From a virus (Duplodnaviria; Caudoviricetes): DNA of 61,501 nt. Every line of letters starts with the position of its first letter. Position 1 is the stretch's first letter. A program made the translations under genes and the position numbers. Shown here one piece after another: positions 37,591 through 39,070 of this stretch. A model generated the notes under the pieces. That model was not told the origin of the DNA. It made no database searches and saw nothing but the letters and a program-made list of their open reading frames with translations. The DNA is taken from positions 1 to 61,501 of the IMG/VR virus record IMGVR_UViG_3300028007_000002; one strand, given 5' to 3'.

Positions 37591-37626
37591 AAGAAGCCTG
37601 TTCACCCCTGAATGAACAGGCTTCTT
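37591..37626. terminator. hairpin between convergent early genes and the Cas operon
   Basis: AAGAAGCCTGTTCA-8nt-TGAACAGGCTTCTT, 14-bp stem. Confidence 0.8.
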
Positions 37627-38309
37627 CAATCACGGGGAATCAGACCGATCGAGAGCAGGCCGAAGCCAAAGGCTTTGCCCGACCCGATGCCCTGACGCAG
37701 CGTGGCGCGGAACCGATCGGCGTCGGTGATAACCAACTCCCCCGCGAAGAGCACCGATCCGAATGTCAGCCGGCCGGGCGAGGCCGGCTTGCCGTCCCCA
37801 GTCTGTTTGATCTCCGGGGTGACGGAGTGTTGGGCGAGCCGGAAGCCGCCGGCCTCGCCCTTACGAATGAGCCAGGCGATCTGTTCGGCCTCGGCGCGAA
37901 ACACGATCCGTTTGCCGTTCCAGCGGCTTGCCTCGACGCGGTTAGCAGGCAGGCGTTTGGTGGGATTGGCACGGAGCCGGAAACGCAGACGATCGCCGGC
38001 CCGAAGGCTCTCCCAATACCCATGGTGCGACTCGACCGCGGGGTTGCGGATCAGCCTGCCGGCCGTATCGGCCAAGTACTCGGACCACAACCGCGACCAA
38101 TCGGGATACACTGCCGATTGAACAATGACGACCAAGCCATCCTCCGGCCACTGATCGACGCGATAGAGTACACCGAGAGTTGCGCGGGCATCCGGATTAA
38201 TCATCTCGGGAAAGGCGCTCAGGATGGTCCGATGAAGTTGTCGGCAATCGGCCAGATCGCGCCGGACATGCGGATCGCTGAGATTGAGGATCAGGCGGGA
38301 CAGATACAT
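37626..38309 (-). CDS. cas6e: type I-E-like crRNA endoribonuclease Cas6e/Cse3
   Basis: MYLSRL, LHRTILSAFP, VLYRVD, VQS..PDW, LRFRLRANPTK, WLIRKG, GIGSGKAFGFGLLSI. Confidence 0.93.
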   Translation of the reverse strand: MYLSRLILNLSDPHVRRDLADCRQLHRTILSAFPEMINPDARATLGVLYRVDQWPEDGLVVIVQSAVYPDWSRLWSEYLADTAGRLIRNPAVESHHGYWESLRAGDRLRFRLRANPTKRLPANRVEASRWNGKRIVFRAEAEQIAWLIRKGEAGGFRLAQHSVTPEIKQTGDGKPASPGRLTFGSVLFAGELVITDADRFRATLRQGIGSGKAFGFGLLSIGLIPRD

Positions 38310-39070
38310 CAGTCCGCCTGCACGGGAAGTATCTGAGGGCAAACAGCGGTAGGACGACGGAGGGGAGCTGGGGTCTCCCACACGCTGACCGGATCGCCTT
38401 CACGCCATCGCTCATACTGTGCGAGGATGCGCAGTCGGCCGTACCCGTAACCGGTCTGATGTCCAACACCGCGATACTCGCCGAACCGAAACAGCGTCCA
38501 GACAATGGCCTGCTGCTCAGGCTCAAGTCGCCAGAGATCAAAGCGCACCAGCCCCAGGAATCCCAATCGTCGCTCTCCGGCGGCCCCAGTCCCCGGACGC
38601 TGCAACAGATCACCGACTGGCGCAACCGCGATGCGGCGCAACGCGACGTCGGGCAGTTCGGGCGTCTCTAGCCAGCCGAGCGCATTCCACCGTAGGGTCA
38701 GACTTCGGTAGATCTTGCTGTACTCGGGAATTAGATGATCGTTGTCGCTGGTCCGAAATCGGGTCGGTGTCGTGAAAGCGATCCAGATCGCTTTGCCGCC
38801 CGCCGGCTGACAGAAATCAGCCATGCGCACCCGTCGAATCAGCCGCGCGGCGGGTTCACCAGACAAGAGCGCCTGGGCGATGTCGTCCTGGCAGGCTATC
38901 ACATCCAAACTGGTTTGCCGTCGAACAACCGAGTAAGGCCGGACTTCATCCGGGTGATGAAGTCGCTGGGCGAGATCGAGATCGACCCGACCAACCGTGG
39001 AAATCACGCGCTCGATCGGGTCAGATTGATAGCCGGGGTAGGGCAGGCGGACAACGGTGATAGCAGTCAT
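38309..39070 (-). CDS. cas6: Cas6 endoribonuclease (non-I-E type)
   Basis: RPYSV, IAFTTPTRFR, P...IYRSLTLRWN, GFLGLVRF, G-loop GVGHQTGYGYG. Confidence 0.88.
   Translation of the reverse strand: MTAITVVRLPYPGYQSDPIERVISTVGRVDLDLAQRLHHPDEVRPYSVVRRQTSLDVIACQDDIAQALLSGEPAARLIRRVRMADFCQPAGGKAIWIAFTTPTRFRTSDNDHLIPEYSKIYRSLTLRWNALGWLETPELPDVALRRIAVAPVGDLLQRPGTGAAGERRLGFLGLVRFDLWRLEPEQQAIVWTLFRFGEYRGVGHQTGYGYGRLRILAQYERWREGDPVSVWETPAPLRRPTAVCPQILPVQAD

What the first reader, a model, noticed from the sequence alone, without database searches (positions are those of the whole stretch)
37626..39070. Two unrelated Cas6 nucleases in tandem: possible capture of host crRNAs from two array types
Seen: a Cas6e/Cse3-type gene (MYLSRL...GIGSGKAFGFGLL) coupled by TGATG to a different Cas6 type (FTTPTRF...GVGHQTGYGYG), both with intact Gly-rich loops. 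Known: Cas6 enzymes are repeat-specific, and Cas6e belongs to type I-E systems. Inference: the phage could cut or bind pre-crRNA from two host CRISPR types and load it onto a nuclease-free Csf complex, acting as an anti-CRISPR sponge or repurposing host spacers against competing elements.
Basis: partly seen in the sequence, partly recalled or inferred. Interest (0 to 1): 0.8.

Follow-up and report, generated by a model that had tools for sequence, protein, structure and literature searches.

The report
Phage type IV-B locus, two Cas6
A soil phage carries a stripped-down CRISPR-like gene set that ends in two different, apparently working RNA-cutting Cas6 enzymes but has no CRISPR array of its own, which gives a practical way to ask what RNA these puzzling type IV-B systems use.

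Summary
Window 37626-39070 (minus strand) encodes two unrelated Cas6-family proteins joined by a TGATG stop/start overlap. One is a type I-E Cas6e (Pfam PF08798, E 1.7e-52). The other is a compact Cas6 (PF10040, E 1.5e-13), here called Cas6x; its model resembles Thermus thermophilus Cas6A.

They close a nine-gene operon on a temperate phage: csf1-like, small helical protein, csf2, csf3, glycosyltransferase, CysH-like, DNA methylase, Cas6x, Cas6e. This is a type IV-B CRISPR-Cas variant. No CRISPR array was found in the 61.5-kb record.

New here: Cas6x is not an opportunistic capture. Its rare family sits beside CysH-like genes in 6 of 8 related loci; the other 2 are too short to judge. Cas6e occurs only in this phage. 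Its nearest cellular relative (56% identity) lies in a canonical I-E operon beside an array. One related viral locus has a four-repeat, I-E-like mini-array about 500 bp downstream of cas6x.

Best reading (about 0.45): both enzymes work in trans on CRISPR-repeat RNA, and Cas6e works on I-E-type host transcripts, either feeding the Csf complex or starving host Cascade. No substrate was shown.

The parts
37626..38309 (-). cas6e: type I-E-type Cas6e/Cse3 endoribonuclease, 227 aa, last gene of the operon
   Evidence: PF08798 E 1.7e-52. TIGR01907 at 88.5 bits, above its cut-off. PADLOC Cas6e 5e-49. Full-length match to T. thermophilus Cse3 1wj9 at E 6.6e-28, with His26 and the G-rich loop aligned. 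50-54% identity to the best 120 listed of 4069 homologues.
38309..39070 (-). cas6x: compact Cas6 (253 aa) of a rare family linked to type IV-B loci
   Evidence: PF10040 E 1.5e-13. AF2 model pLDDT 91.2. Foldseek top hits are T. thermophilus Cas6A 4c8y (E 4e-14, TM 0.68/0.72), Cas6B, S. thermophilus Cas6 and type IV Cas6 6njy. His38 is invariant in 45 sequences. Only 6 other clusters among 5.8 billion proteins by word search. 22 cluster representatives at E<=1e-30 among 1.84 billion.
39067..39873 (-). DNA N6/N4 methyltransferase (DPPW motif read directly), overlaps the cas6x start by ATGA
   Evidence: PF01555 E 5.3e-08. PADLOC MTase_II 7e-14. Overlap seen.
39792..40607 (-). CysH-like (PAPS-reductase fold) type IV-B signature gene
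   Evidence: PF01507 E 3.6e-13. 62% identical to the CysH-like gene of locus L004. An STGKDS PP-loop is present and there is no Cys in the C-terminal tail (read from the translation).
40541..41155 (-). GT-A-like glycosyltransferase (204 aa) inserted in the operon
   Evidence: No Pfam or PADLOC hit. ESM Atlas: virus clusters, one structural row is PF01755 Glyco_transf_25 (87% of members) at TM 0.83. The C-terminal 61 aa is 36% identical to the 291-aa protein between cysH and cas6x in L001.
41152..42069 (-). csf3 (type IV Cas5); the likely start is the ATG at 41904
   Evidence: PADLOC typeIV_Cas5 Csf3_0_IV E 1.5e-19, residues 79-299.
41892..42908 (-). csf2 (type IV Cas7 backbone)
   Evidence: PADLOC typeIV_Cas7 Csf2_0_IV E 4.1e-25. 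TIGR03115 is weak at 27.5 bits, below its cut-off.
42942..43385 (-). 147-aa all-helical protein, putative Cas11-like small subunit (unverified)
   Evidence: No HMM hit. hhalign against verified IV-B Cas11 sequences gives probability 2.6%. The AF2 model is weak (pLDDT 69.4). The only PDB chain with TM>0.5 is Cas11 of the IV-B complex 7jhy_g (TM 0.51/0.52), but at E 2.2.
43351..44076 (-). csf1-like large subunit (weak call)
   Evidence: PADLOC typeIV_Cas8 Csf1_0_IV E 0.007. 30% identity to the corresponding gene in L004. The gene is in the expected position.
37591..37626 (.). Stem-loop starting at the cas6e stop codon, between convergent genes; terminator-like, single copy. The exact inverted repeat has two 14-nt arms; the MFE fold extends the stem to 16 bp.
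   Evidence: Inverted repeat I14. RNA fold -30.9 kcal/mol, z -4.5. No U-tract, so the terminator scan did not flag it. It does not resemble I-E repeats.
37045..37569 (+). orf174, unknown protein that recurs next to cas6x
   Evidence: tblastn homologues lie beside cas6x in L003 (42% identity) and L004 (45%). No Pfam family. No usable Atlas hit.
44145..45893 (-). Large serine recombinase (integrase) immediately upstream of the operon
   Evidence: Resolvase, Recombinase and Zn_ribbon_recom domains.

Best explanation
The stretch encodes the RNA-processing end of a phage-borne type IV-B CRISPR-Cas variant. Cas6x is the system's own Cas6. It is conserved with the CysH-like and Csf genes in a rare sub-clade carried by temperate phages and other elements. 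Cas6e is a second enzyme taken from a type I-E system and found only in this phage. The phage record has no repeat array, so both enzymes most likely act in trans on CRISPR-repeat RNA made by the host or by a co-resident element. Cas6e would cut I-E-type hairpin repeats and stay bound to the product. The bound crRNA would then either be passed to the Csf2/Csf3 backbone, giving the nuclease-free complex a guide, or be withheld from host Cascade. Shown: gene identities, intact conserved residues, operon coupling, the conserved Cas6x/IV-B association, no array found in the record, and an I-E-like mini-array beside cas6x in one related viral locus. Inferred: the substrates, loading onto Csf, and the biological outcome.
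For: Identities. Nine genes run from 44076 to 37626 with overlapping or closely spaced starts and stops, and a strong hairpin follows the last stop. Cas6x co-occurs with CysH-like in 6 of 8 loci found (L001, L002, L003, L004, L006, L007; L005 and L008 are about 1.1 kb and uninformative) and with csf2/csf3 in 5 of 8. L001 genes match csf1, csf2, cas11, csf3 and Cas6 models in PADLOC and a PAPS-reductase (CysH-like) model in Pfam. Two independent links connect this sub-clade to I-E-type repeats. (a) L001 has four 29-nt repeats with 32-nt spacers about 500 bp downstream of cas6x, and the repeat aligns with Chloroflexota I-E repeats: score 12 against L016 (shuffle mean 3.2, max 9), 10 against L021 (max 9), 12 against L023 (max 12, so one shuffle tied) and only 6 against L014 (max 10), in 500 shuffles each. 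(b) The window carries Cas6e, and its best cellular relative in 301 Chloroflexota genomes (56% identity) sits in a cas3-cse1-cse2-cas7-cas5-cas6e-cas1 operon beside a 43-repeat array with a 61-bp period. Cas6e keeps all 45 invariant family columns, including His26. Cas6x His38 is invariant in 45 sequences. No array or repeat-like unit was found in the phage.
Against: In the only published test, the Mycobacterium sp. JS623 IV-B complex co-expressed with I-E Cas6 and an array bound heterogeneous RNA, and crRNAs were about 0.12% of reads (PMC7937560, passages read). IV-B correlates negatively with I-E in host genomes (PMC7038947). Cas6e is absent from all 8 related loci, and PF08798 was not found in the 3 of 5 records that could be searched, so the I-E link is not general. 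Only 1 of 8 loci has an array in the fetched stretch; that array is separated from cas6x by a small ORF and abuts a TnpB gene, so the association could be incidental. More distant compact-Cas6 relatives lie beside 36-nt repeats, not 29-nt ones. The host is unknown. None of 156 spacers from the arrays held here matches the phage over its full length. The residue-level equivalence of His38 with the catalytic His of Cas6A was not shown, because sequence alignments cover only the C-terminal domain. The record may lack up to about 1.5 kb: the identical protein also lies on a 63,044-bp contig, and the window has no terminal repeat.
Confidence: 0.45

Rival explanations
1. Cas6e acts alone as an anti-CRISPR decoy. 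The phage enzyme out-competes the host Cas6e for I-E pre-crRNA and stays bound to the 3' hairpin, producing crRNPs that host Cascade subunits cannot assemble on. The Csf/CysH module and Cas6x do something separate.
For: Cas6e is unique to this phage among 9 loci. It has no close donor: at most 54% identity in the word-indexed search of 5.8 billion proteins and 56% in 301 Chloroflexota genomes, so it may no longer fit a host Cascade. The phage has no array. An anti-CRISPR role for IV-B has been discussed in print (PMC7038947).
Against: Cas6e is translationally coupled to cas6x and lies inside the IV-B operon, which argues for a joint function. No Acr or Aca family was detected nearby. The authors of PMC7038947 themselves call such a complex Acr mechanism unlikely.
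Confidence: 0.15
2. The substrates are not CRISPR RNAs. One or both Cas6 proteins process or cap phage or host non-CRISPR transcripts on which the Csf filament assembles, and the CysH-like enzyme, methylase and glycosyltransferase then act on a bound nucleic acid (modification or silencing).
For: The JS623 IV-B complex assembles on heterogeneous non-CRISPR RNA (PMC7937560). 7 of 8 related loci have no array in the fetched stretch. Three modification-type enzymes sit in the same operon.
Against: No conserved non-coding sequence is shared between the window operon and the 8 loci; blastn found only cysH and cas6x coding matches. There is no Rfam family in the window. The only strong hairpins near the operon are single-copy and terminator-like. 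Cas6e proteins of this family sit next to arrays: the three closest cellular loci were enlarged and all three have long arrays.
Confidence: 0.2
3. Cas6e is a passenger picked up by recombination with a host I-E locus and has no role in the phage. Only Cas6x matters.
For: It is absent from all related loci. It is the terminal gene of the operon, a typical position for a recent addition.
Against: It retains every invariant family column, including the His and the G-rich loop. It has a precise one-base stop/start overlap with cas6x. Its GC3 of 0.73 is within the range of the other phage genes. No other I-E remnant flanks it.
Confidence: 0.1

Closest known systems
Type IV-B CRISPR-Cas (csf1-cas11-csf2-csf3 plus cysH-like; e.g. 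Mycobacterium sp. JS623, PDB 7JHY)
   Same: Csf2 and Csf3 are present by HMM. A CysH-like PAPS-reductase-fold gene is present. The operon has no helicase or nuclease, no array was found, and the locus is carried by a mobile element.
   Different: [quoted passage not shown] This locus has two. It also has a methylase and a glycosyltransferase inside the operon. Csf1 and Cas11 are only weakly recognisable.
Type IV-A3, whose Cas6 was recruited from type I-E (Pinilla-Redondo et al., PMC7038947)
   Same: This is a precedent for a type IV system borrowing a Cas6e-type enzyme and using I-E-like repeats.
   Different: IV-A3 has DinG and its own array and lacks CysH. The window's Cas6e scores far better against I-E Cas6e models (5e-49) than against the IV-A3 Cas6 model (2.7e-05), so it is an independent acquisition.
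Thermus thermophilus Cas6A (TTHA0078, PDB 4c8y/4c97)
   Same: It is the best structural match to the Cas6x model (TM 0.68/0.72) and the best sequence match for the C-terminal domain (profile E 6e-24). It shares the two-RRM fold and the G-rich loop.
   Different: About 21% identity. Cas6x has a shorter N-terminal domain that does not align by sequence. Cas6A serves 36-nt repeat arrays of type I/III systems (recalled, not from a call).
Thermus thermophilus Cse3/Cas6e (TTHB192, PDB 1wj9, 2y8w)
   Same: Full-length alignment at E 6.6e-28. His26 and the GxGxxKAxGxGLL loop are conserved.
   Different: Tyr23 of the Thermus enzyme is Arg here. The gene is not in an I-E operon and has no array.
Fuxivirus (Bathyarchaeia virus) atypical type IV-B with a mini-array (PMC10848311)
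   Same: A virus-encoded IV-B with CysH-like. One relative of our locus (L001) likewise has a mini-array.
   Different: The word Cas6 does not occur in that paper's main text (0 occurrences). The host is archaeal.

Membership tests
Cas6e/Cse3/CasE (PF08798, TIGR01907) | Sequence matches the family models above their curated cut-offs | tested here: met
   179.3 bits against 25; 88.5 bits against 45.2.
Cas6e/Cse3/CasE (PF08798, TIGR01907) | Catalytic His (His26 of T. thermophilus Cse3) and C-terminal Gly-rich loop | tested here: met
   His26 and the loop align. Both are invariant columns in a 25-sequence alignment. That His26 is the catalytic residue is recalled, not from a call.
Cas6e/Cse3/CasE (PF08798, TIGR01907) | Encoded in a type I-E operon (after cas5e, before cas1) next to a 61-bp-period array | tested here: not met
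   The neighbours are cas6x and a terminator-like hairpin. No array was found. The 56%-identical cellular relative does meet this feature.
Cas6e/Cse3/CasE (PF08798, TIGR01907) | Cleaves I-E repeat hairpins at the 3' base of the stem | not testable with these tools
   Needs a biochemical assay.
Cas6 superfamily (PF10040 / TIGR01877) | Sequence matches the family models above their cut-offs | tested here: inconclusive
   The Pfam domain is met (51.7 bits against 25). The NCBIfam equivalog is not met (26.9 bits against 58.65).
Cas6 superfamily (PF10040 / TIGR01877) | Two tandem RRM/ferredoxin-like domains with a Gly-rich loop | tested here: met
   AF2 pLDDT 91.2. The top 49 Foldseek matches at E<=0.001 are Cas6-family chains as far as listed. 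The GVGHQTGYGYG loop is seen.
Cas6 superfamily (PF10040 / TIGR01877) | Catalytic His in the N-terminal domain | tested here: inconclusive
   His38 is invariant in 45 sequences and sits just after helix 31-37. The closest structure is catalogued with an H37A mutant. No residue-level superposition was available.
Cas6 superfamily (PF10040 / TIGR01877) | Adjacent cognate CRISPR array | tested here: not met
   None in the window. 1 of 8 related loci has one.
Type IV-B CRISPR-Cas | csf2 (Cas7) and csf3 (Cas5) | tested here: met
   PADLOC 4.1e-25 and 1.5e-19.
Type IV-B CRISPR-Cas | csf1 large subunit and cas11 small subunit | tested here: inconclusive
   Csf1 E 0.007. The 147-aa protein has no HMM hit, hhalign probability 2.6%, and Foldseek TM 0.51 to 7jhy Cas11 at E 2.2.
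Type IV-B CRISPR-Cas | Associated cysH-like gene with a PP-loop and no C-terminal catalytic Cys (feature as described in PMC8175902) | tested here: met
   PF01507 E 3.6e-13. The STGKDS motif and a Cys-free C-terminal tail are read from the translation.
Type IV-B CRISPR-Cas | No DinG/RecD helicase and no CRISPR array | tested here: met
   No helicase lies between 37626 and 44076. No array was found.
Type IV-B CRISPR-Cas | No Cas6 | tested here: not met
   Two Cas6 genes are present. The locus is therefore filed as a variant, not a typical member.
Anti-CRISPR | Inhibits a CRISPR-Cas system | not testable with these tools
   No assay was possible and no Acr or Aca family was detected.

The most novel reading that the evidence does not exclude
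This sub-clade of type IV-B is a guide-pirating system. The phage's Cas6e cuts the host's type I-E pre-crRNA, and Cas6x possibly cuts a second repeat class. The Csf backbone is then loaded with stolen guides. This disarms host Cascade. It also redirects the host's spacer memory, through the CysH-like, methylase and glycosyltransferase enzymes, against competing phages and plasmids without any nuclease.
Probability: 0.2. Interest if true: 0.85.

Novelty: new variant of a known kind. Interest (0 to 1): 0.6.

Why it matters
The RNA that type IV-B complexes use, and what they do, is a long-standing open question. The only biochemical study used a Cas6-less system and found non-specific RNA. A IV-B sub-clade that keeps its own Cas6, has an I-E-like mini-array in one relative and has an added Cas6e in this phage supplies defined proteins and candidate repeats. 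These can be tested directly in E. coli by cleavage assays, Csf pull-down with RNA-seq and interference assays. A positive result would show that at least some IV-B systems are crRNA-guided or crRNA-sequestering, and that phages can carry the processing enzyme rather than the array.

Tried and rejected
Array or solitary repeat in the phage. Tandem Repeats Finder, direct-repeat searches at two settings, the L001 repeat with up to 3 mismatches, a CCCCGC..GCGGGG hairpin pattern, and best-Hamming scans with five repeat units against shuffles all found nothing beyond chance. Rfam found no family and ARAGORN no tRNA.

Close relatives of the phage. No DNA match in the phage collection. tblastn with Cas6e found one phage record at 26.7% identity. 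Single-protein scans of viral contigs found nothing. A wider Cas6x alignment found only L001 again plus two C-terminal fragments. A Cas6e alignment found 3 viral loci at 31-45% identity with no IV-B hits by tblastn.

Host identification. Portal-protein homologues carried no organism names in the listing. One cluster member at 52% identity is named Verrucomicrobiota MAG, which is too distant to use. 156 spacers from held arrays and the 3 L001 spacers gave only 13-18-nt partial matches to the window.

Conserved non-coding RNA near the loci. blastn of window 36000-46500 against L001-L008 matched coding cysH and cas6x only.

Cas11 assignment of the 147-aa protein: not established. orf174: no family and no usable Atlas hit.

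Hairpin at 37591-37626 as a Cas6 substrate: rejected as unlikely. It has a single copy, a 16-bp MFE stem and no likeness to known repeats.

Expression: no RNA holder listed. Five soil-metagenome DNA runs hold the stretch, and two of them may be the source.

Supplementary Data S1 of PMC7038947, which lists the 12 IV-B loci with Cas6, could not be seen, so some of them may belong to the Cas6x family described here.

Literature. Searches found no report of a IV-B locus with two Cas6 genes. For PMC7038947, PMC8175902, PMC7937560 and PMC10848311 I read matched passages only. For all other papers I saw search listings only.

The tally of 76 of 401 genomes includes G230, which is flagged unpublished and contributes one weak C-terminal match. 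No other claim rests on it.
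Full report
WHAT IS THERE. The window is the whole held record, a 61,501-bp virus contig. PHROGs identify a large terminase, portal, head-morphogenesis protein, major head protein, a 1035-aa tape measure, helicases, a replication initiator and a tyrosine integrase. There is also a large serine recombinase at 44145-45893. It is therefore a temperate tailed phage. Near-identical DNA occurs in soil-metagenome runs.

On the minus strand, directly downstream of the serine recombinase, nine genes run from 44076 to 37626 with overlapping or nearly abutting starts and stops:
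- a weak csf1-like gene (PADLOC Csf1 E 0.007)
- a 147-aa helical protein
- csf2 (typeIV_Cas7, 4.1e-25)
- csf3 (typeIV_Cas5, 1.5e-19)
- a 204-aa GT-A-like glycosyltransferase
- a CysH-like PAPS-reductase-fold protein (PF01507, 3.6e-13)
- a DNA N6/N4 methylase (PF01555)
- the two genes of the finding
. [quoted passage not shown]

THE OBSERVATION. It is confirmed exactly.

Cas6e (38309->37626, 227 aa) matches PF08798 at E 1.7e-52 and TIGR01907 above its cut-off. It aligns over its full length with T. thermophilus Cse3 at E 6.6e-28, with His26 and the Gly-rich loop in register.

The second protein (39070->38309, 253 aa), here called Cas6x, matches PF10040 above its cut-off at E 1.5e-13. It is below the cut-off of the NCBIfam Cas6 equivalog.
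- An AlphaFold2 model built on 45 relatives has pLDDT 91.2.
- Its best PDB matches are T. thermophilus Cas6A (TM 0.68/0.72, E 4e-14), Cas6B, S. thermophilus Cas6 and a type IV Cas6.
- The two window proteins resemble each other only in the Gly-rich loop.
- The TGATG junction between them and an ATGA junction with the methylase gene are in the sequence.

WHAT IS NEW: CAS6X BELONGS TO THE SYSTEM. Cas6x is rare. The word-indexed search of 5.8 billion proteins found 6 other clusters at 44-52% identity. A profile search of 1.84 billion representatives found 22 at E<=1e-30 that align over the full length; weaker hits align only to the C-terminal domain of ordinary, longer Cas6 proteins.

Scans of viral, genome and metagenome contigs gave 8 loci (L001-L008). 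tblastn with the window's proteins and with those of L001 gave these counts:
- CysH-like gene beside cas6x: 6 of 8 loci (L001, L002, L003, L004, L006, L007). The other two are about 1.1-kb fragments.
- csf2 and/or csf3: 5 of 8.
- Cas6e: 0 of 8.

In L001, an IMG/VR contig of 57 kb, PADLOC identifies csf1 (2.2e-28), csf2 (1.3e-57), cas11 (5.8e-42), csf3 (1.8e-37) and Cas6. An integrase and a CI-like repressor lie further on. The setting therefore matches the window: a moron-like block near the integrase of a temperate phage.

L004 is the closest relative (CysH-like 62% identical). Its order is csf1, small protein, csf2, cysH, csf3, cas6x, orf174, so the gene order is shuffled but Cas6x is kept. 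In 401 sampled Chloroflexota genomes only one, the genome that holds L003, has a strong full-length match (1.5e-73). Two more distant full-length relatives (1.8e-31 and 4.2e-28) lie beside arrays of 36-nt repeats with no csf or cysH tblastn hit nearby. Cas6x is therefore the conserved Cas6 of a rare IV-B sub-clade, not a second enzyme captured to match a second host array.

CAS6E IS THE ADD-ON, AND IT COMES FROM TYPE I-E. 4069 proteins match at E<=1e-10. The 120 best listed are 44-54% identical, and those that carry names are annotated as I-E Cas6e from Blastocatellia, Chloroflexota, Methanocella and others. In 301 Chloroflexota genomes, 19 have a match. The best (56% identity) lies in a cas3-cse1-cse2-cas7-cas5-cas6e-cas1 operon next to an array of 43 repeats with a 61-bp period.

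Arrays were seen beside 6 of the 10 best loci, three of them after the fetched stretch was enlarged. The repeats are of the form ...GTCCCCAC-NNNN-GTGGGG-GTGAACC. PADLOC scores the window protein far higher against I-E Cas6e models (5e-49) than against the IV-A3 Cas6 model (2.7e-05). This acquisition is therefore separate from the known recruitment of Cas6e into type IV-A3. The protein keeps all 45 invariant columns of a 25-sequence alignment.

A SECOND, INDEPENDENT LINK TO I-E-TYPE REPEATS. In L001, about 500 bp downstream of cas6x, there are four 29-nt repeats separated by 32-nt spacers (period 61), followed by a TnpB gene. The repeat aligns with the Chloroflexota and viral I-E repeats. Against 500 shuffles each, the scores were 12 against L016 (shuffle mean 3.2, max 9), 10 against L021 (max 9), 12 against L023 (max 12, so a shuffle tied) and only 6 against L014 (max 10). 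It does not align with the 36-nt repeats. The plus strand, which is the cas6x strand, folds better than the reverse (-10.8 against -7.8 kcal/mol). No Cas6e was found in that contig. The array is in one locus only, so the association may be incidental.

NO ARRAY IN THE PHAGE. Every search for arrays, mini-arrays or single repeat-like units in the window was negative or at chance level. The strong hairpin at 37591-37626 (-30.9 kcal/mol, z -4.5) starts at the cas6e stop codon between convergent genes, is single-copy and looks like a terminator. One caveat: the identical Cas6x protein also lies on a 63,044-bp contig, and the window has no terminal repeat. Up to about 1.5 kb may therefore be missing from this record.

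MECHANISM. My best reading (0.45) has two parts.
- Cas6x is the sub-clade's own processing or capping subunit.
- Cas6e lets this array-less phage act in trans on I-E-type repeat RNA from the host or a co-resident element. The product is either loaded onto the Csf2/Csf3 backbone or kept from host Cascade.

Only the gene content, conservation and context are shown. The substrates, the loading and the outcome are inferred.

The strongest counter-evidence is published. The JS623 IV-B complex, co-expressed with I-E Cas6 and an array, bound heterogeneous RNA and crRNAs made up about 0.12% of reads (PMC7937560). IV-B also correlates negatively with I-E across hosts (PMC7038947). That system, however, has no Cas6 of its own.

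The rivals are:
- Cas6e alone as a decoy anti-CRISPR (0.15)
- non-CRISPR RNA substrates, with the CysH-like, methylase and glycosyltransferase enzymes modifying a bound nucleic acid (0.2)
- Cas6e as an inert passenger (0.1)

COMPARISON AND NOVELTY. Type IV-B on phages and viruses is known. IV-B with a Cas6 is mentioned as a rare exception, 12 instances listed in a supplement I could not open. The sponge and guide-borrowing hypotheses are in print. I did not find the following in the searched literature: a IV-B locus with two different Cas6 genes; a defined compact Cas6 family that travels with CysH-like/Csf genes; and the pairing of that family with I-E-type elements in two separate ways. I rate it a new variant of a known kind.

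LIMITS. The host is unknown. The Cas11 and Csf1 assignments are weak. The catalytic role of His38 is inferred from invariance and from the H37A entry of the closest structure, without a residue-level superposition.

Noticed in passing
L001:11175-11392 (plus TnpB at 11438-12760, minus strand): A four-repeat CRISPR mini-array (29-nt I-E-like repeat, 32-nt spacers) lies about 500 bp downstream of cas6x in a related viral contig and directly abuts an IS605-type TnpB gene.
   Followed up: partly
window 40541-41155 and 39067-39873 (minus strand): A GT-A-like glycosyltransferase and a DPPW-motif DNA methylase are embedded inside the type IV-B operon, on either side of the CysH-like gene. The glycosyltransferase shares its C-terminal part with the 291-aa protein that lies between cysH and cas6x in L001 and L002. 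Together this suggests a nucleic-acid modification theme.
   Followed up: partly
window 37045-37569 (+); L003:3658-4098 (-); L004:11209-11580 (+): An unknown protein (orf174) recurs next to cas6x in three loci. It has no Pfam family and no usable Atlas hit.
   Followed up: partly
L004:6688-8142 (+): In the closest relative, the small helical protein and csf2 lie in the same reading frame within one 484-aa ORF. This may be a Cas11-like/Csf2 fusion or a mis-called start.
   Followed up: no
window 16859-16888, 17646-17675, 18123-18152, 18714-18743: A 30-nt motif (two copies of a CGAGAGGCCGGAGCC-like unit) recurs four times. Each copy ends 7-23 nt upstream of one of four consecutive ORFs, just before the tape-measure gene. 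It may be a shared regulatory or translation-initiation element.
   Followed up: no
window 3448-4506 (+) and 44145-45893 (-): The phage encodes both a tyrosine integrase and a large serine recombinase.
   Followed up: no
window 36660-37115 (+) and 57345-59624 (+): There is an HNH endonuclease with an HTH domain two genes from the operon's end, and a 759-aa helicase/DNA-methyltransferase fusion near the right end of the genome.
   Followed up: no
window 36610-36651: A perfect 18-bp inverted repeat with a 6-nt loop follows the ORF that ends at 36605. It is terminator-like and is the strongest hairpin in the window.
   Followed up: no
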